From a virus (taxonomy: Duplodnaviria; Heunggongvirae; Uroviricota; Caudoviricetes): a DNA stretch of 6,597 nucleotides. Below the pieces are notes generated by a model, which was not told the DNA's origin, did not search any database, and saw nothing but the letters and a program-made list of their open reading frames with translations. The DNA is taken from IMG/VR virus record IMGVR_UViG_3300029071_000005, positions 1-6,597 of that record; one strand, 5' to 3'. Every line of letters starts with the position of its first letter. Positions within the stretch are counted from its first letter, which is position 1. Both the position numbers and the translations under genes were made by a program. This document shows, in pieces, positions 1-6,466 of this stretch.

Positions 1-120
1 CGCCGCGCTCTGGAATTTTCGCCCCGCCGCGCTTATCAGGCTCTTACCAGCAAACGCCCCTTTGTTGGGGTGTCGCCAGTACGTGTTCACGCTGGGCGGA
101 AAAGGCAGGATCAGCTTCAT
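1..120 (-). CDS. rusA: RusA-like Holliday junction resolvase, N-terminal 40 codons only (gene runs off the window start)
   Basis: Minus-strand ATG at 120-118 overlaps the stop of the upstream gene (plus TCAT at 117-120 = ATGA on minus). Translation MKLILPFPPSVNTYWRHPNKGAFAGKSLISAAGRKFQSAA carries the LP-PPS-N-Y-RH N-terminal signature I recall for RusA-family resolvases. Partial, no stop within the window. Confidence 0.6.
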   Translation of the reverse strand, partial: MKLILPFPPSVNTYWRHPNKGAFAGKSLISAAGRKFQSAA

Positions 121-443
121 ACTTTCAGGTCCCTCTCATGTAACCAGTGGGTTGCACGCAGCCTTGCGTTTTCCTCACCGGCAAGCAGTGCGCGGATAAT
201 CCCGACTGCCTCGCTGTCGTCGTCCTTCACCGCGGTATGAAGCGTTATCCCCCGGGCCACACCACGCTTTATCGTGATGACGCCTTTTTTCTCCAGTGCG
301 CGAAGATGCTCCACCGCTGCATTCACTGAACGGTATCCCAGCATGGTTGCCACCTCCTGATTGGTTGGCGGGAAACCACGTTCTTTCTGATAAGAAATCA
401 GCATATCCAGCACCTGCTGCTGGCATTGAGTTAACGTCGTCAT
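117..443 (-). CDS. LexA-like DNA-binding domain protein lacking the S24 peptidase/dimerisation domain (108 aa)
   Basis: Track ORF 117..443. Residues 1-69 align without gaps to the E. coli LexA N-terminal winged-helix domain as I recall it (about half identical), with the recognition-helix segment SVNAAVEHLRALEKKG versus LexA SPNAAEEHLKALARKG. A hinge-like VGIIRALLAGEEN resembles LexA VGRVAAGEPLL, then the protein ends after about 25 more residues. ATGA overlaps at both ends (440-443 and 117-120). Confidence 0.75.
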   Translation of the reverse strand: MTTLTQCQQQVLDMLISYQKERGFPPTNQEVATMLGYRSVNAAVEHLRALEKKGVITIKRGVARGITLHTAVKDDDSEAVGIIRALLAGEENARLRATHWLHERDLKV

Positions 444-2402: not shown

Positions 2403-2623
2403 GCTGCACCTCCGAGATGCTTCATGTTTTTTCTGGAGCGAAAGGCTATAAGCGGCATACTGACGCGGTAATTACGGCCCAGCGGTTCACAAACCACCTT
2501 CTGACATTCACGGTCAACCAGGCTAACACGTAGAACATGCCCTGCAGGCGTGGTGTACCACTGACCCGGACGAGGACAACGGAAAGTCTGATTGGTAAAA
2601 CGTTTGAAAATATTCCGGATCAT
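2399..2623 (-). CDS. Hypothetical small protein (74 aa), possibly Cys-containing zinc-ribbon-like
   Basis: Track ORF 2399..2623. ATGA overlaps at both ends (2620-2623 and 2399-2402) link it to Rha and the replication gene. Contains the paired cysteines FRCPRPG...DRECQKVVCE. No family recognised. Confidence 0.5.
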   Translation of the reverse strand: MIRNIFKRFTNQTFRCPRPGQWYTTPAGHVLRVSLVDRECQKVVCEPLGRNYRVSMPLIAFRSRKNMKHLGGAA

Positions 2624-3165
2624 TTGCGCCCCCTTACCTCTGAAGGGTTCAGCGACAAATTTATGAGGCAGGCCAGCGCCGAAGCATCATTAATATAGTC
2701 ATATAAGCTAACAGCCAGCGGAGATTCGGCTTTTGCCAACATAGGATAAAGCTGCTGCAGCCAGACCTGATGAATTGATGAAATGTAGGAACAGAGAACG
2801 CTGGCGTTATGTGCAACGTCGCTCGGTACAGCGGGCCTTGAAAGCTGTTTCTCCATCTGGTTAAAGGCATTGATGTATGCCTCTTTGAACTGGGCAGCAC
2901 GTTTACCCGTGAAACCCATAGCAAGAAACGCAAAGCCGTCGCGGGTTATTTGATAGCAAGGTAGTTTGCGGCCTGTGCAATCGGTGTAATCACTCACCGA
3001 AAAATTGCGGGCAGTGAATGATGCGGAGCATTCAAGCGTGCGGATCTTTTTCAGTACATCGTCATGACGTTTGGAGAAGAAGTTGGCAACAGCCAGGGAT
3101 GAAGTAACAGCCTGACCATCAACGATGGCAATTTCAGGTTGAGTGAGGGTTGGGATCGTAGCCAT
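2620..3165 (-). CDS. Rha-family phage regulatory protein (181 aa as called)
   Basis: C-terminal 181 codons of track ORF 2620..3771. MATIPTLTQPEIAIVDGQAVTSSLAVANFFSKRHDDVLKKIRTLE...GRKLPCYQITRDGFAFLAMGFTGKRAAQFKEAYINAFNQME is a classic Rha N-terminal domain. Start chosen at ATG 3165-3163, preceded by AAAGAGG (GAGG 9 nt upstream). The frame stays open a further 202 codons upstream, so the true start is uncertain. Confidence 0.8.
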   Translation of the reverse strand: MATIPTLTQPEIAIVDGQAVTSSLAVANFFSKRHDDVLKKIRTLECSASFTARNFSVSDYTDCTGRKLPCYQITRDGFAFLAMGFTGKRAAQFKEAYINAFNQMEKQLSRPAVPSDVAHNASVLCSYISSIHQVWLQQLYPMLAKAESPLAVSLYDYINDASALACLINLSLNPSEVRGRK

Positions 3166-3333
3166 GATGGCAGCCTCTTTGGTGATTTTAAATAACTCAC
3201 CACCAAGGCTTTCCACGACCTTATTGGTGGTGAGACGTACAGGGGTGGAAATACCGGTCACCAAAGAACCCGGCCCAACCGAAGTTGGCCCTGCACGCCC
3301 CACCATAATTTGGGCGTAATGCTGCTCATGACA

Positions 3334-3357
3334 CAAAAAAACCGCAAGAGCGCGGTT
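3334..3357 (-). terminator. Candidate intrinsic terminator on the minus strand
   Basis: Minus-strand RNA AACCGC-GCUCUU-GCGGUU followed by UUUUUGUG (plus-strand A7 run at 3335-3341, arms 3340-3345 and 3352-3357). 6-bp stem, 6-nt loop, U-tract. Lies between the 59-aa ORF stop and the Rha start. Confidence 0.45.
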
Positions 3358-3442
3358 GTGCGCTTTGGTGAATTCCGGGTTTCCACGCCCGGCACCCGCT
3401 TTATAAGGTGCCTGAACAGTGTAACGTCCCGGAATGGCAGAA

Positions 3443-3622
3443 TCAATGTGCTGGTGGTCCTTCACACTCAACAAAATCACGCCTGAATTTCCACAAAGGA
3501 CTAAAGCACTCATGCGGGTAGTCTTTGCGAAGATAGATAACGCGCTGTGTTTCTGGCTCCCAACGAATAACATGAACATAAAGTCCTCTTCCGTCACGAA
3601 ACCAGCGGTTAAGTTCCTGCAC
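3443..3622 (-). CDS. Hypothetical 59-aa protein absent from the ORF track (GTG start, just under the 60-aa cutoff)
   Basis: Reading minus strand from GTG 3622-3620 to TGA 3445-3443 gives VQELNRWFRDGRGLYVHVIRWEPETQRVIYLRKDYPHECFSPLWKFRRDFVECEGPPAH, checked codon by codon. G-rich SD-like GGGGGG lies 6 nt upstream. It is out of frame with, and entirely inside, the N-terminal part of the 383-aa track ORF. No family recognised with confidence. Confidence 0.4.
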   Translation of the reverse strand: MQELNRWFRDGRGLYVHVIRWEPETQRVIYLRKDYPHECFSPLWKFRRDFVECEGPPAH

Positions 3623-3652
3623 AACTCGCCCCCCACAGTCAGGTAAAGTTCT

Positions 3653-3668
3653 CTGTGGTTACTTACAG
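3653..3668. promoter_or_regulatory. LexA (SOS) box core match CTGT-N8-ACAG
   Basis: CTGTGGTTACTTACAG at 3653-3668. It is the only exact CTGT-N8-ACAG I found in the window. Lies 31 bp upstream (minus strand) of the 59-aa ORF start, in the gap after the CII-like gene. The spacer is less AT-rich than strong chromosomal SOS boxes. Confidence 0.4.
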
Positions 3669-3767
3669 CCAGGTGATTTGGTAATCTGCATTCATGCCGT
3701 AACAACAGGTGTTCAGCCACGCGGACCACCAACTGTTGCGACCAACGGTTATTTGCCGTTAAACTGT

Positions 3768-4385
3768 TCATGCGTTAGTTTCTCCACAACCAGAAGCAAT
3801 CGACGCCACGACGCCCGGAGCTGCACACTCGCGGGCGTTACTCTTTTCCGGTGCACAAAAAACACGAAATAACAGTGTTAAATGCTCCTGCCACTTCGCC
3901 ATTACTTGGTAGCTGTTCTCTTCGATTTGCTCACGCTCAGCCTGGTCAATAACTCCATCAGCAGTTGCCTTGCGTAAGTACTGGGAATGCTTGCCAATCC
4001 ATTCTATTGACTCCATCAGCCGCTGATTAATGTCACCATTGCCAATGTCATCAATGACCACCAGCGGCACAAACACCCCATTACTACGACGGGCTATTGC
4101 ATCTGTTACATGCCTGGTACCACTGGCATCCTGTAAAACCATGGCCCACTCAAGTGGAAAAATTTGATCCCCACCGCTACGCAGTCTGTTATGCAATTGA
4201 TCTTTTGCTGGGGTGATATCATCAGATTTATACAAACCAAGAATTTCTGCTGCTTCCTCATAGCCATGAGGTAAATCAGCAATCGTTCTTCGTATTGCTG
4301 CCACCAGCCATGCTGGTTGTTTATCAACTTTCCATTCAGGTTCTTTACCCACGGCTATCTCCTTAAAACTGTGGTTACTTTCCAT
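3768..4385 (-). CDS. CII-like / YdaT-like early regulatory protein (205 aa)
   Basis: Track ORF 3768..4385. Second gene after cro-like, the position of cII. AAEILGLYKSDDITPAKDQLHNRLRSGGDQIFPLEWAMVL loosely parallels lambda CII AEAVGVDKSQISRWKRDWIPKFSMLLAVLEWGVV as I recall it. Start ATG 4385 overlaps the last 11 nt of the cro-like gene. Confidence 0.55.
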   Translation of the reverse strand: MESNHSFKEIAVGKEPEWKVDKQPAWLVAAIRRTIADLPHGYEEAAEILGLYKSDDITPAKDQLHNRLRSGGDQIFPLEWAMVLQDASGTRHVTDAIARRSNGVFVPLVVIDDIGNGDINQRLMESIEWIGKHSQYLRKATADGVIDQAEREQIEENSYQVMAKWQEHLTLLFRVFCAPEKSNARECAAPGVVASIASGCGETNA

Positions 4386-4623
4386 CTGATAAGTCTTTAA
4401 TCTTTTGAAAAATATCTGGACGTAATTTTTCTTTTGATACGCCAGTGGTCATTTCAATAAATATCGAGAGCTTTGCAGGGGGACGCTTTTCTCTGTTCAA
4501 CCAGTTCCAGACATGTTGTTGCTTTACTAAACGACCACTGCTGGCTGTGAGCTTCCGAGCCAATTCTGATTGACCACCAGCCAGAGCGATTGCCTCTGAT
4601 AAGGCTAATTGCTCAGGTGTCAT
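4375..4623 (-). CDS. Cro-like / YdaS-like HTH transcriptional regulator (82 aa)
   Basis: Track ORF 4375..4623. HTH segment GGQSELARKLTASSGRLVKQQHVWNWL. Transcribed divergently from the repressor; GGAG lies 6 nt upstream of the ATG; a TATAAT -10 lies upstream on the minus strand. Confidence 0.8.
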   Translation of the reverse strand: MTPEQLALSEAIALAGGQSELARKLTASSGRLVKQQHVWNWLNREKRPPAKLSIFIEMTTGVSKEKLRPDIFQKIKDLSDGK

Positions 4624-4647
4624 AGCTTTCTCCTATCTGTAAGTAGT

Positions 4648-4731
4648 AAAGTTGTTGATAACTTCGATTATACAACCACAACAACTTTTATCACAACTTT
4701 TAGATGTTGGAAAGCTAAAACATAAAGTTGT
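4648..4731. promoter_or_regulatory. OR-like operator region: four copies of the 8-9 bp motif AAAGTTGT/ACAACTTT, including an imperfect 16-bp palindrome
   Basis: AAAGTTGT at 4648-4655 and 4724-4731; ACAACTTTT at 4681-4689 and 4693-4701; palindrome AAGTTgttgatAACTT at 4649-4664. Sits between the divergent repressor and cro-like genes. Confidence 0.65.
4667..4696 (-). promoter_or_regulatory. Candidate pR-like sigma70 promoter for the cro-like operon
   Basis: On the minus strand: -35 TTGTGA (plus 4691-4696), 18-bp spacer, -10 TATAAT (plus 4667-4672), about 40 nt upstream of the cro-like ATG. Overlaps the operator repeats. Confidence 0.55.
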
Positions 4732-4760
4732 AACCTCAATAAAAACGAGGGGGATATGTT

Positions 4761-5447
4761 GTGAAAACATTGGCAGAAAGACTAAAAAGCGAAAGAGAAA
4801 AAGCAGGAATGAGTCAGGCGCAACTAGCTGAAAAAATTGGGCTTTCACAACAATCCGTAGCGAAAATCGAGAATGGAGAAACTCAACAGCCTCGGAAAAT
4901 TAAAGAGATTGCTAAAGTGTTAGGGGTTTCTCAAAAGTGGTTGCAATTGGGCATTGAGGATAACGCGTCTTTCCCAGACCTTGTTGTAAAGGAGGCTGAA
5001 AGTACAGCATTAGATCCTGACATTTTTGCAAACATTCCAGTCCTAGATGTCGAGTTATCAGCGGGTAATGGATGTTTGGCTGAAATAGTTGAATCAACTG
5101 TAGACTGGTTCCCGCTAAGAAGGATTGATTTAAGAAAAGCTGGTGTATGTGTCTCCAATGCAAAGATCGTAAAAATTTGGGGCAATAGTTTACTACCTGT
5201 ACTTAACAATGGAGATTTTGTTGCTGTTGATGTTTCCCAAACGGTTCCTATTCGTGATGGGGATCTTTATGCCATACGTGATGGCGTATTACTTAGAGTT
5301 AAAATATTGATCAATTTACCTGACGGTGGTCTGATTCTAAGAAGTTTCAATAAAGATGAGTATCCAGATGAAATACTCACCTTCGAAGATAGGCGTTCCA
5401 GAATTCACGTTATAGGTAGAGTATTCTGGTCATCGCGCACTTGGTAA
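4761..5447 (+). CDS. CI-like prophage repressor: N-terminal XRE-type HTH plus C-terminal S24 (LexA-like) autopeptidase domain
   Basis: Track ORF 4761..5447, GTG start 10 nt after GAGGGGG. HTH is MSQAQLAEKIGLSQQSVAKIENG. S24 signatures: candidate Ala-Gly cleavage site in LSAGNG, Ser motif WGNSLLPVLNNGDFVAVD (compare LexA GMSM...GDLLAV), Lys motif LLRVKIL (compare LexA VTVKRLK). Confidence 0.85.
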   Translation: MKTLAERLKSEREKAGMSQAQLAEKIGLSQQSVAKIENGETQQPRKIKEIAKVLGVSQKWLQLGIEDNASFPDLVVKEAESTALDPDIFANIPVLDVELSAGNGCLAEIVESTVDWFPLRRIDLRKAGVCVSNAKIVKIWGNSLLPVLNNGDFVAVDVSQTVPIRDGDLYAIRDGVLLRVKILINLPDGGLILRSFNKDEYPDEILTFEDRRSRIHVIGRVFWSSRTW

Positions 5448-5474
5448 TGCATCAAAAAACCTTCCTTCAGAAAT

Positions 5475-5579
5475 TTAGTTACCATTATTACCCGCCTTTT
5501 CAATCTTCCTCCCGTGATTTGAGAGTTTCCAATCACGGAAGGAAAGTGTCCCTTGTGTAATTAAAAGCGCATCGTCCAT
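5475..5579 (-). CDS. Candidate 34-aa small ORF antisense downstream of the repressor
   Basis: ATG 5579-5577 preceded by a perfect AGGAGG (plus CCTCCT 5585-5590) at 5-nt spacing. Translation MDDALLITQGTLSFRDWKLSNHGRKIEKAGNNGN, stop TAA 5477-5475. It is the C-terminal part of track ORF 5475..5663, whose upstream start would lie inside the operator-like block. Confidence 0.3.
   Translation of the reverse strand: MDDALLITQGTLSFRDWKLSNHGRKIEKAGNNGN
5504..5546 (+). other. Stable hairpin about 57 nt after the repressor stop (possible repressor 3' end structure; no U-tract)
   Basis: Inverted repeat TCTTCCTCCCGTGATT (5504-5519) and AATCACGGAAGGAAAG (5531-5546), about 13 bp with one mismatch and an 11-nt loop. 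Not followed by a T-run on the plus strand, so not a classic intrinsic terminator. Confidence 0.3.
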
Positions 5580-5640
5580 ACAACCTCCTTTTTTGATAAC
5601 CCTTGCCCTCATTTCACATCCGTCAAAACCACATAAAGTT

Positions 5641-5690
5641 GTTGACAACAACCAAAACAACAACTAGATTACAACTTAAAGATGTTGCAG
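5641..5690. promoter_or_regulatory. OL-like operator block homologous to the OR-like region
   Basis: CATAAAGTTGT at 5641-5651 is identical to 4721-4731. TAAAGTTGTTGAcAAC resembles 4647-4663 (TAAAGTTGTTGAtAAC). ACAACT-type half-sites recur at 5667-5672 and 5680-5685. About 55-60 bp of shared sequence with indels relative to 4645-4710. Confidence 0.6.
5651..5679 (+). promoter_or_regulatory. Candidate pL-like sigma70 promoter, plus strand
   Basis: -35 TTGACA (5651-5656, perfect), 17-bp spacer, -10 TAGATT (5674-5679), embedded in the operator-like repeats. Would transcribe towards boxA and the ORF at 5830. Confidence 0.55.
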
Positions 5691-5761
5691 TAACGAACAG
5701 GTAGGACGCCCACGAAGTAGCCGCCCGGGGCATATGAAGTCCAGGATGATTCGTTAGCAAC

Positions 5762-5784
5762 AAAAAAGCGCCCTACAGGACGCT
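5762..5784 (-). terminator. Candidate intrinsic terminator on the minus strand
   Basis: Minus-strand RNA AGCGUCC-UGUA-GGGCGCU (7-bp stem with one G-U pair, tetraloop) followed by UUUUUU (plus-strand A6 at 5762-5767). The same sequence folds less well on the plus strand (C-A mismatch). Confidence 0.45.
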
Positions 5785-5786
5785 TA

Positions 5787-5798
5787 GCTCTTTAACAA
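5787..5798 (+). promoter_or_regulatory. boxA-like antitermination element
   Basis: GCTCTTTAACAA at 5787-5798 matches the rrn/lambdoid boxA consensus (TGCTCTTTAACAA) at 12 of 13 positions. About 100 nt downstream of the candidate pL-like start and 32 nt upstream of the ATG at 5830. No clean boxB-type hairpin seen 3' of it. Confidence 0.5.
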
Positions 5799-5829: not shown

Positions 5830-6123
5830 ATGGTCATATTCTGTGCTTACGTTCATCCTAATGGATTTTTTATCAGTACCAACCAACAAGACGAATTCTG
5901 GATTCTACTTAGTAAGCAGGTCGGATGGGGACGATTCTGTCTAATCCGACCAGAATCAGAATTTACAGAGAATGGAGGGCTTTTTGAATTACGTGAAATA
6001 CGTCCGGCAGATGGTCAAGCCCCTGACCAAGTAATCGAATCGTCAGCTGTTTTATGGCGTCGGCAGGAAGCGTTCGAAGCTGAGAGAGTAATTTCTTCTT
6101 ATCTTCAGTCGTGGCAGAAGTAG
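5830..6123 (+). CDS. Hypothetical protein (97 aa) in the position of a first pL-operon gene; function unknown
   Basis: Track ORF 5830..6123. Good RBS (AGAGGG, 4 nt before the ATG). Downstream of the plus-strand promoter and boxA. No arginine-rich N-terminus like lambda N. Its 3' 160 bp overlaps the convergent minus-strand ORF 5963..6466, so one of the two calls may be wrong. Confidence 0.35.
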   Translation: MVIFCAYVHPNGFFISTNQQDEFWILLSKQVGWGRFCLIRPESEFTENGGLFELREIRPADGQAPDQVIESSAVLWRRQEAFEAERVISSYLQSWQK

Positions 6124-6466
6124 AACTATTGATGATACGTTCAAGTTCACAGAGAGTCTCATCATGCAATCTTATTGTCATAATCCCAAGAATAGCTTTA
6201 AGACCTCCATCATCACGAATGAAATCAATTCCATCTTTAGTAATTCTTAATTCAGGAATATTTATATTTATGCCATCCAAGTAATAATCAAGAGCATTCT
6301 TAATCAAGCCATGTTCTTCGAGATAAATTAAGTTCGAAATTAGGACATTATCATCTCCAAATGCGTCACGAACAGACTGCAACGCATCATCAGAAATTTC
6401 ATAAGGATGAGCATCATACAGTATTTGTAACAACTGCCTTTGTGCACTTCTATCAAATTTGTCCAT
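5963..6466 (-). CDS. Hypothetical protein (167 aa) encoded mostly in a visibly AT-rich segment
   Basis: Track ORF 5963..6466. 114 stop-free codons in AT-rich DNA (about 6124-6466) are unlikely by chance. Sequence is protein-like, with a possible winged-helix segment (LISNLIYLEEHGLIK). GGTGA lies 9 nt upstream of the ATG. No family recognised. Confidence 0.6.
   Translation of the reverse strand: MDKFDRSAQRQLLQILYDAHPYEISDDALQSVRDAFGDDNVLISNLIYLEEHGLIKNALDYYLDGININIPELRITKDGIDFIRDDGGLKAILGIMTIRLHDETLCELERIINSSTSATTEDKKKLLSQLRTLPADAIKQLTIRLLGQGLDHLPDVFHVIQKALHSL

What the first reader, a model, noticed from the sequence alone, without database searches (positions are those of the whole stretch)
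4624..5700. Repressor gene flanked by two homologous operator blocks with oppositely wired promoters
The block at 4645-4731 (between the repressor and cro-like genes) and the block at 5641-5690 (downstream of the repressor) share the AAAGTTGT/ACAACTTT half-site family, including an identical 11-mer (CATAAAGTTGT) and a 15/17 match (TAAAGTTGTTGA[T/C]AAC). In the first block the strong promoter elements are on the minus strand (TATAAT at 4667-4672). In the second the same repeats surround a plus-strand TTGACA-17-TAGATT promoter, and the segment carrying the minus-strand -10 is missing. This matches an OR/OL arrangement and gives a concrete prediction of the repressor's operator half-site.
Basis: seen in the sequence. 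Interest (0 to 1): 0.5.

Follow-up and report, generated by a model that had tools for sequence, protein, structure and literature searches.

The report
Prophage repressor with two operator blocks
This is the on/off switch of an E. coli lambda-like prophage: a 434-like repressor gene flanked by two related sets of repressor-binding sites. It is an ordinary kind of switch, but this version has not been described and its binding site can now be predicted.

Summary

- **Genes.** The window is a lambdoid E. coli prophage. It has a CI-like repressor (4761-5447, +; HTH plus S24 peptidase) and a divergent Cro-like YdaS-family gene (4375-4623, -).
- **Repeats.** AAGTTGT/ACAACTT occurs six times in 6.6 kb, always inside the two blocks.
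- **Operator.** It is best read as a 15-bp dyad, ACAACTT-N-AAGTTGT. Four copies exist: 4693-4707, 4717-4731, 5628-5642 and 5671-5685 (0.04 expected by chance). Conserved orphan half-sites accompany them.
- **Conservation.** In about 40 distinct relatives (58-100% repressor identity, Escherichia to Proteus and Serratia) these sites are invariant, while the PR start region and the PL spacer vary freely.
- **Repressor.** Its DNA-binding domain resembles the phage 434 repressor and keeps the Gln-Gln pair that reads ACAA in 434.
- **Block relationship.** OL is a direct copy of part of OR, not a mirrored one. It lacks the 11 bp that carry the PR -10.
- **Verdict.** No binding data exist. This is a new member of a known kind, of modest interest.

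Seen in passing: the PL transcript starts with a covarying, widespread 63-nt RNA that has no Rfam family.

The parts
4375..4623 (-). Cro-like gene (82 aa, YdaS-family HTH), first gene of the PR operon
   Evidence: ORF. Pfam YdaS_toxin E=3.6e-14; phrog_35. Homologues sit next to the repressor in all relatives and share the helix KQQQVWNW.
4649..4655 (+). Orphan half-site AAGTTGT, at about +6 to +12 of PR. The partner half (4641-4647) is not conserved.
   Evidence: Invariant in 12 lineages while the flanking 4656-4665 varies freely. Present in all 41 unique OR sequences.
4667..4672 (-). PR -10 hexamer TATAAT
   Evidence: Relatives keep TATAAT, TATTCT, TACAAT or TATATT at the same place.
4671..4676 (+). 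Invariant TACAAC abutting the PR -10. It carries an ACAAC half-site core.
   Evidence: Invariant columns.
4681..4687 (+). Orphan half-site ACAACTT inside the PR spacer, 12 bp before the next dyad
   Evidence: There is no dyad partner.
4691..4696 (-). PR -35 TTGTGA (18-bp spacer), overlapping dyad OR-b
4693..4707 (+). Dyad OR-b, ACAACTTTTAGATGT (12/14 to the consensus). It overlaps the PR -35 and is centred about -43 from the inferred PRM start.
   Evidence: The same site is present in every relative.
4707..4736 (+). Inferred PRM: TTGGAA, 18 bp, TAACCT (TAAAAT in the Providencia and Proteus relatives)
   Evidence: Read from the sequence and from alignment A2. The promoter scan does not call it. 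This is inference.
4717..4731 (+). Dyad OR-c, AAAACATAAAGTTGT (12/14), inside the PRM spacer and touching its -10. Probably the autorepression site.
4761..5447 (+). CI-like repressor, 228 aa. It has a 434-like HTH, an Ala101-Gly102 putative cleavage site, and Ser143 and Lys181 in the S24 domain.
   Evidence: Pfam HTH_3 and Peptidase_S24. PDB match to 434 repressor residues 1-69, E=1.2e-14. Motif positions. phrog_4.
5599..5626 (-). Inferred weak leftward promoter: TTGACG, 16 bp, AAGGGT (AAGGAT in relatives). It lies upstream of the remnant of a BRCT-domain gene.
   Evidence: ATCCTT and TCAAAC are conserved across lineages. The geometry relative to dyad OL-a matches that of PRM relative to OR-b. 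The promoter scan does not call it. This is inference.
5628..5642 (+). Dyad OL-a, ACCACATAAAGTTGT (12/14; ACAACATAAAGTTGT, 13/14, in Providencia and Proteus). It abuts the PL -35.
5642..5670 (+). PL promoter: TTGACA, 17 bp, TAGATT
   Evidence: The -35 is invariant and the -10 is TAGATT, TAAATT or TAATAT in relatives, while 11 spacer positions vary freely.
5660..5665 (+). Orphan half-site ACAACT, just before and overlapping the PL -10
   Evidence: Conserved columns. There is no dyad partner.
5671..5685 (+). Dyad OL-c, ACAACTTAAAGATGT (13/14), covering about -6 to +9 of PL. Its centre is 43 bp from OL-a in every relative.

Best explanation
The two blocks are the right (OR) and left (OL) operator regions of a lambdoid prophage immunity switch.

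The repressor (4761-5447) is a CI-type protein. It has a 434-like helix-turn-helix domain and a LexA-like self-cleaving domain. It most likely binds as a dimer to a 15-bp dyad, ACAACTT-N-AAGTTGT (ACAA-N7-TTGT).

At OR:
- Dyad OR-b (4693-4707) covers the -35 of the leftward cro promoter PR. It sits about -43 from a weak rightward promoter for the repressor gene (PRM), a position from which it could activate that promoter.
- Dyad OR-c (4717-4731) lies inside that promoter and would shut it off at high repressor levels.
- Conserved orphan half-sites (4649-4655, 4672-4676, 4681-4687) surround the PR -10 and start site. They probably help repression through cooperative binding, or they serve the Cro-like protein.

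At OL:
- Dyad OL-a (5628-5642) abuts the -35 of the rightward promoter PL.
- Dyad OL-c (5671-5685) covers the PL start site.

OL is a direct copy of the left and middle part of OR. It differs by an 11-bp deletion that removes the PR -10 and by a T-to-C change that turns TTGATA into TTGACA. The same sites therefore control a promoter that fires the other way.

Shown here: the genes, the repeats, their conservation, and the promoter matches for PR and PL. Inferred: binding, the dyad geometry, PRM, activation, and cooperativity.
For: - Gene identities.
- The repressor DNA-binding domain matches the 434 repressor (E=1.2e-14) and keeps the Gln-Gln-Ser of the recognition helix.
- The half-site 7-mer occurs 6 times, only inside the two blocks.
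- The 15-bp dyad with up to 2 mismatches gives exactly 4 hits, against 0.04 expected.
- The same four dyads are found in all seven first relatives. The OL spacing is a constant 43 bp.
- There are 41 unique OR and 42 unique OL sequences from prophages whose repressors are 58-100% identical. They keep the half-sites invariant while the PR start region (4656-4665) and the PL spacer (5648-5658) are hypervariable.
- In dyad OL-c, lineages carry the mismatch in either the left or the right half but never in both, so every copy scores 13/14.
- PR and PL are the only strong sigma-70 matches in the region. PL is also called in a relative.
- The Cro-like protein is conserved together with the operators.
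- YdaS-family proteins act as Cro analogues and bind an equivalent intergenic region in prophage CP-933P (PMC8630535).
Against: - There is no binding or transcription data for this repressor.
- The dyad consensus was derived from these same sequences and their relatives.
- Only two full dyads exist per block, and none covers the PR -10 or start site. How PR is fully shut off therefore rests on orphan half-sites of unknown role.
- The orphan half-sites lie 11-12 bp from a dyad, too close for two dimers to bind side by side.
- PRM is a weak match that the promoter scan does not call.
- A 15-bp spacing differs from the 14 bp of 434, so contacts cannot simply be transferred from the 434 structure.
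Confidence: 0.8

Rival explanations
1. The functional unit is the single 7-8 bp half-site, used in arrays of direct and inverted copies. It is not a 15-bp dyad. The repressor or Cro would bind these arrays in a mixed geometry, as proposed for prophage CP-933P.
For: Three or four conserved half-sites have no dyad partner: 4649, 4672, 4681 and 5660. Read along the PR sense strand, three half-sites form a direct array spaced 12 and 9 bp apart. The CP-933P footprints cover palindromes with degenerate half-sites plus direct repeats (PMC8630535).
Against: The four full dyads are far above chance. Their weaker halves are themselves conserved. The mismatch in OL-c moves between halves so that each copy keeps 13/14. 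HTH plus S24 repressors are known to bind as symmetric dimers (established knowledge for lambda, 434 and P22).
Confidence: 0.12
2. The repeats are sites for a different protein only, and the CI-like protein binds elsewhere. The candidates are the Cro-like YdaS protein or the CII-like YmfL activator.
For: The Cro-like protein is conserved with the sites and also carries a Gln-Gln motif in its likely recognition helix. Lambda CII binds direct repeats (established knowledge).
Against: The ACAA outer bases fit the 434-like Gln-Gln helix of the repressor. No other repeated motif is present in OR or OL. In known lambdoid switches CI and Cro share operators. CII-type sites would be expected inside or beyond cro, not at OL.
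Confidence: 0.05
3. The similarity between the two blocks is a recombination or duplication scar with no operator function.
For: The blocks align directly over about 60 bp with only two indels, as a recent duplication would.
Against: The half-sites are invariant in lineages whose repressors are only 58-70% identical, while the bases between them have diverged completely. This holds at both loci. The sites sit on the only strong promoters.
Confidence: 0.02

Closest known systems
Phage lambda OR/OL genetic switch (CI, Cro, PR, PRM, PL)
   Same: Divergent cI and cro genes with back-to-back promoters. The repressor has an HTH domain and a LexA-like cleavage domain. A second operator set lies over PL, downstream of cI. 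One site is placed to activate the repressor's own promoter and one to repress it.
   Different: The operator sequence and length differ (15 bp here, 17 bp in lambda). There are two full dyads plus orphan half-sites per block, not three operators. OL is a direct copy of OR rather than its mirror image. Cro belongs to the YdaS family. The repressor gene has a Shine-Dalgarno sequence and a GTG start.
Phage 434 repressor and its 14-bp operators (ACAA-N6-TTGT; PDB 1per, 2or1, 1rpe)
   Same: The DNA-binding domain is homologous (E=1.2e-14). The Gln-Gln-Ser of the recognition helix and the Arg equivalent to Arg43 are kept. The operator has ACAA and TTGT at its outer ends.
   Different: The spacing is N7, not N6. 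Position 5 is an invariant C. The residue equivalent to Gln33 is Lys. The inner half-site bases (CTT) are conserved. The immunity is different and the C-terminal domain is not comparable, because the 434 structures cover the N-terminal domain only.
CP-933P cryptic prophage PaaR2 / YdaS / YdaT immunity region (Jurenas et al. 2021, PMC8630535)
   Same: A CI-like repressor and a YdaS-family Cro analogue bind overlapping sites in a short intergenic region with two promoters. Some palindromes have one degenerate half. Direct and inverted repeats are mixed. Related repeats lie at a PL promoter.
   Different: The repeat sequence is different (GTTTAGTAA, 18-bp palindromes). PaaR2 is translated without a leader and sits in an operon with a toxin-antitoxin pair. 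Here the CII analogue is YmfL-type, not YdaT.
Phage HK022 put RNA (relevant only to the PL leader RNA noticed in passing; PMC9378689)
   Same: A structured RNA of about 60-70 nt at the very start of the PL transcript, in a lambdoid phage with no recognisable N gene, followed by terminator-like hairpins.
   Different: No sequence or covariance-model similarity to putL or putR. The architecture is an outer stem enclosing two hairpins, rather than two side-by-side stem-loops. No second copy lies downstream of PR within the window.

Membership tests
Lambdoid CI/Cro immunity switch | Divergently transcribed repressor and cro genes separated by a short control region with back-to-back promoters | tested here: met
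   The genes are at 4761-5447 (+) and 4375-4623 (-), 137 bp apart. PR is called by the scan. PRM is inferred only.
Lambdoid CI/Cro immunity switch | The repressor has an N-terminal HTH domain and a C-terminal S24 (LexA-like) domain with an Ala-Gly site and a Ser/Lys dyad | tested here: met
   Pfam HTH_3 (residues 8-57) and Peptidase_S24 (98-222). AG is at 101-102, the GNS Ser at 143 and the RVK Lys at 181. Cleavage itself was not tested.
Lambdoid CI/Cro immunity switch | The same operator motif is repeated at OR and at a second site (OL) that overlaps an outward promoter beyond the repressor gene | tested here: met
   Conserved in relatives.
Lambdoid CI/Cro immunity switch | Three tandem operators per control region, with OL the mirror image of OR (the lambda paradigm) | tested here: not met
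   Each block has two full dyads plus orphan half-sites. The blocks align in direct orientation. This feature belongs to lambda itself, not to the whole class.
Lambdoid CI/Cro immunity switch | Repressor and Cro physically bind the operators and control PR, PRM and PL | not testable with these tools
   Needs EMSA or footprinting and reporter assays.
434-type repressor/operator pair | DNA-binding domain homologous to the 434 repressor, with the Gln-Gln recognition helix | tested here: met
   phmmer against the PDB, E=1.2e-14. SQQSVAKIEN aligns with TQQSIEQLEN. QQ is kept in all relatives.
434-type repressor/operator pair | 14-bp operator ACAA-N6-TTGT | tested here: not met
   The outer ACAA and TTGT are present, but the spacing is N7 (15 bp) in all four dyads and in all relatives.
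HK022 put antiterminator RNA (for the PL leader element) | Sequence and structure homology to putL or putR | tested here: not met
   The covariance model R1 built from 89 sequences finds nothing in the HK022 put regions. Rfam has no put family to test against.
HK022 put antiterminator RNA (for the PL leader element) | Structured RNA of about 70 nt immediately downstream of PL | tested here: met
   The element is at 5693-5755 and starts about 15 nt after the predicted PL start. It holds the same position in SfV, ST64B and ZF40.
HK022 put antiterminator RNA (for the PL leader element) | Promotes terminator read-through by binding RNA polymerase | not testable with these tools
   Needs read-through assays and rpoC zinc-binding-domain mutants.

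The most novel reading that the evidence does not exclude
The OL block may be more than a PL operator, in two ways.

1. In the ancestral arrangement kept by nearly all relatives, repressor bound at dyad OL-a sits about -43 from a weak leftward promoter. This is the same geometry as OR-b and PRM. The prophage repressor could then directly switch on an accessory BRCT-domain gene in lysogens.

2. The PL transcript begins with an undescribed, strongly covarying 63-nt RNA (5693-5755). It is shared by many N-less lambdoid phages of different immunity types. It could be a new class of cis-acting RNA that makes RNA polymerase read through terminators, working like HK022 put but unrelated to it.
Probability: 0.3. 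Interest if true: 0.6.

Novelty: new member of a known kind. Interest (0 to 1): 0.3.

Why it matters
**A testable operator for a common immunity type.** The region is present in 72 of 5,426 complete E. coli genomes. The exact repressor sequence is on at least 1,000 contigs. Relatives occur in Providencia, Proteus and Serratia, plus one contig labelled Pseudomonas. Databases name the repressor only as an XRE or HTH regulator.

**What the operator allows.**
- Predicting which prophages are immune to one another.
- Designing induction-proof or inducible variants.
- Adding a 434-like repressor with N7 spacing to the set of orthogonal repressor-operator pairs.

**How an OL can arise.** The direct-copy relationship of OR and OL shows one route: duplicate part of OR, delete 11 bp and change one base, so that the same sites control a promoter facing the other way.

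The switch architecture itself would not surprise a specialist.

Tried and rejected
- **16-bp palindrome AAGTT-N6-AACTT at 4649-4664.** Rejected as the operator. The right half is not conserved in any relative.
- **Perfect 15-bp palindrome GTTGTTGACAACAAC at 5638-5652.** Rejected. Its right arm lies in the hypervariable PL spacer.
- **434-style 14-bp sites (ACAA-N6-TTGT).** None are present.
- **Third full dyad per block.** None reaches 10/14 at the expected positions.
- **Known phage with this immunity.** No GenBank phage matches the repressor region at the DNA level. The best protein match is 44%.
- **Literature search for the operator sequence.** Only irrelevant hits.
- **Literature search for the leader-RNA core.** No paper.
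- **Rfam.** No family for the leader RNA or for HK022 put.
- **Homology of the leader RNA to HK022 put.** Rejected by the covariance-model search.
- **King et al. 2011, on new antiterminator RNAs.** The paper could not be retrieved.
- **Locus L002 (93% identical 'plasmid' copy).** Set aside as noisy, because the repressor gene is fragmented in its annotation.
- **Strong leftward promoter for the BRCT gene in a relative.** The promoter scan finds none, so that promoter stays an inference.
Full report
**What the window is.** The 6.6-kb window is the early region of a lambdoid E. coli prophage. On the minus strand, from right to left, it carries:
- a Cro-like YdaS-family gene (4375-4623);
- a CII-like YmfL gene (3768-4385);
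- an antirepressor module;
- a replication-initiator-like gene;
- a PerC-like gene;
- a Dam methylase;
- a LexA-DNA-binding-domain protein.

A 228-aa repressor gene lies on the plus strand at 4761-5447. Near-identical DNA occurs in E. coli chromosomes next to ymfL and yfdN/P/Q/R genes. No GenBank phage carries this immunity region at the DNA level. The best protein match among phages is 44% identical. Public databases name the repressor only generically.

**Check of the observation.** All sequence statements are correct.
- The 11-mer CATAAAGTTGT is at 4721-4731 and 5632-5642.
- TAAAGTTGTTGA[T/C]AAC is at 4647-4662 and 5634-5649.
- The 8-mer AAAGTTGT/ACAACTTT has five exact copies and the 7-mer AAGTTGT has six. 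All lie within 4649-4731 and 5636-5677, against 1.25 copies of the 7-mer expected in the whole window.
- The promoter scan finds TTGTGA-18-TATAAT on the minus strand, with the -10 at 4672-4667. It finds TTGACA-17-TAGATT on the plus strand at 5642-5670. Nothing else of that quality is in the region.
- A pairwise alignment of the blocks is collinear on the same strand. It places an 11-nt gap in the second block opposite TTCGATTATAC, which contains the PR -10.
- The second block starts at about 5628 rather than 5641.

**The operator.** Reading the repeats against relatives shows a 15-bp dyad, ACAACTT-N-AAGTTGT.
- With up to two mismatches it occurs exactly four times in the window, against 0.04 expected: 4693-4707, 4717-4731, 5628-5642 and 5671-5685.
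- The same four sites score at least 11/14 in each of seven first relatives. Two of these come closer to a perfect palindrome: ACAACATAAAGTTGT and ACACCTTAAAGTTGT.
- The two OL dyads are 43 bp apart, centre to centre, in every relative. The two OR dyads are 24 or 25 bp apart.
- Conserved half-sites without a partner are also present: AAGTTGT at 4649-4655, ACAAC at 4672-4676, ACAACTT at 4681-4687 and ACAACT at 5660-5665.

**Conservation.** I collected relatives from complete E. coli genomes, from one genome per species and from viral contigs.
- Their repressors are 58-100% identical to this one. They come from Escherichia, Providencia, Proteus and Serratia, plus one contig labelled Pseudomonas lundensis.
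- There are 41 distinct OR and 42 distinct OL sequences.
- In a gap-free comparison of 12 lineages, these stretches are invariant or nearly so: AAGTTGT (4649-4655), TACAAC (4671-4676), almost all of 4680-4736, 5621-5647 and 5659-5688.
- In the same comparison, the PR start region (4656-4665) and the first 11 bases of the PL spacer (5648-5658) have diverged completely (also alignments A2 and A3).
- The PR -10 changes only among functional variants: TATAAT, TATTCT, TACAAT and TATATT.
- In dyad OL-c, lineages have either a perfect left half with one mismatch on the right, or the reverse. Each therefore keeps 13/14. This looks like selection on site strength.
- This pattern excludes a functionless duplication.

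**Fit to the repressor.**
- The N-terminal 65 residues match the phage 434 repressor DNA-binding domain (E=1.2e-14). The recognition helix reads SQQSVAKIEN, against TQQSIEQLEN in 434. The Gln-Gln pair is kept in all relatives.
- From established structural work on 434, Gln28 and Gln29 read the outer ACA of the half-site ACAA. This agrees with the invariant ACA found here. That Lys replacing Gln33 reads the invariant C at position 5 is my speculation.
- The spacing is N7 rather than the N6 of 434, so this is not a 434-type operator in the strict sense.
- The C-terminal half is an S24 domain, with Ala101-Gly102, Ser143 and Lys181. That fits RecA-stimulated self-cleavage.
- The Cro-like protein is conserved with the module and has a KQQQVWNW helix. 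[quoted passage not shown]

**How it most likely works.**
- OR-b overlaps the PR -35. It is centred about 43 bp upstream of the start of a weak rightward promoter, TTGGAA-18-TAACCT (4707-4736; TAAAAT in two relatives). This resembles lambda OR2, which represses PR and activates PRM.
- OR-c lies inside that promoter, like OR3.
- At OL, OL-a abuts the PL -35 and OL-c covers about -6 to +9.
- The orphan half-sites lie around the PR -10 and start site and just before the PL -10. Their role is open. They may be weak sites filled cooperatively, Cro sites, or part of a mixed direct/inverted array as discussed for CP-933P.
- PR and PL are scan results. PRM, activation and cooperativity are inference.

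**Relation of the two blocks.** Unlike lambda, where OL mirrors OR, OL here is a direct copy of the left and middle of OR.
- The half-dyad at 4641-4655 corresponds to OL-a, the orphan at 4681 to the orphan at 5660, and OR-b to OL-c.
- The copy lacks 11 bp, and TTGATA has become TTGACA.
- The site that covers the -35 of PR therefore corresponds to the site that covers the start of PL, and the reverse also holds.

**Things beyond the finding.**
1. *Deleted BRCT gene.* In all lineages except the window's own, a 296-aa BRCT-domain gene lies on the minus strand between the repressor gene and OL. The window keeps only an internally deleted remnant (5475-5579, -), with about 714 bp missing. Upstream of it, conserved TTGA.. 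and AAGGAT elements sit in the same geometry to OL-a as PRM does to OR-b. The repressor may therefore activate this gene in lysogens. This is inference, and the promoter scan does not call the promoter.
2. *PL leader RNA.* The PL transcript starts with a 63-nt element (5693-5755).
   - Its 19-nt core is found in at least 120 viral contigs and in 54 GenBank phages, including SfV, SfII, SfIV, ST64B, ZF40 and mEp237. In SfV, ST64B and ZF40 it sits just downstream of an unrelated cI gene, and in all four phages examined (these three and mEp237) a promoter-like sequence lies just upstream.
   - Across 89 distinct sequences, two stems covary strongly. Cells paired are 98.3%, against 21-41% when the partners are slid. 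Cells with changes on both sides number 250, against 74 in shuffles.
   - It has no Rfam family and no similarity to HK022 put under a covariance model. No paper in the library contains its core sequence.
   - It is followed by a hairpin (5766-5785) and an exact rrn-type boxA, GCTCTTTAACAA (5787-5798).
   - A role in terminator read-through is a reasonable but untested guess.
3. *Second immunity layer.* A C4 antisense RNA (3223-3310, -) and isrK (3335-3411, -) precede a Rha-type antirepressor gene (2620-3165, -).

**Verdict.** This is an undescribed but ordinary member of the lambdoid immunity switches, with a 434-like repressor and a predicted 15-bp operator. Interest is modest. The PL leader RNA is the item most worth a separate look.

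Noticed in passing
window 5693-5755 (+): A 63-nt structured RNA at the 5' end of the predicted PL transcript. Its 19-nt core GGACGCCCACGAAGTAGCC occurs in at least 120 viral contigs and in 54 GenBank phages (SfV, SfII, SfIV, ST64B, ZF40, mEp237 and others). In SfV, ST64B and ZF40 it lies just after an unrelated cI gene, and in those three and mEp237 a promoter-like sequence lies just upstream. Two stems covary strongly (98.3% paired; 250 cells changed on both sides). It has no Rfam family, no model-level similarity to HK022 put, and no paper containing the core. It may be a cis-acting antiterminator.
   Followed up: partly
window 5766-5798: The hairpin AAGCGCCCTACAGGACGCTT (5766-5785) reads as an intrinsic terminator on the minus strand, for the convergent 167-aa gene. 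It is followed on the plus strand by GCTCTTTAACAA (5787-5798), which I recall (not checked here) as identical to the rrn boxA. PL transcription must pass this point to reach the early-left genes.
   Followed up: no
window 5475-5579 (-); L003 2329-3219 (-): A remnant of a 296-aa BRCT-domain gene (phrog_3989, function unknown). The gene lies between the repressor gene and OL in every other lineage. About 714 bp are deleted in the window's lineage only. Its upstream region keeps a conserved weak promoter-like pair placed relative to dyad OL-a as PRM is relative to OR-b.
   Followed up: partly
window 2620-3424 (-): C4 antisense RNA (3223-3310, 83.6 bits) and isrK (3335-3411, 67 bits) lie upstream of a Rha-type antirepressor-like gene (2620-3165). 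This looks like a P1 immI-like second immunity layer within the PR operon. The 383-aa ORF in the mechanical list (2620-3771) runs across these RNA genes, so its upstream two-thirds is probably not coding.
   Followed up: partly
window 117-443 (-): A 108-aa protein that consists of a LexA DNA-binding domain with no S24 cleavage domain (Pfam LexA_DNA_bind, E=2.9e-19). It would be a non-cleavable LexA-like protein encoded by the prophage.
   Followed up: no
window 5963-6466 (-): A 167-aa AT-rich gene of unknown function (phrog_3983). It is transcribed against PL, between OL and the early-left genes, and has its own terminator. It looks like an inserted accessory gene. The overlapping 97-aa plus-strand ORF (5830-6123) has no family match and is not annotated in RefSeq relatives.
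   Followed up: no
window 5671-5685 and the same site in relatives: In dyad OL-c the single mismatch is at position 4 of either the left half (ACACCTT with AAGTTGT) or the right half (ACAACTT with AAGATGT or AAGGTGT), never both. Every lineage therefore keeps 13/14. This suggests selection for a fixed, less than maximal site strength.
   Followed up: partly
L002 (NZ_CP081716.1, 37.7-kb 'plasmid' of E. coli CX04): A 93%-identical copy of the immunity region lies on a 37.7-kb circular record annotated as a plasmid, with the repressor gene broken into fragments. This may be an excised or episomal prophage, or a noisy assembly.
   Followed up: no
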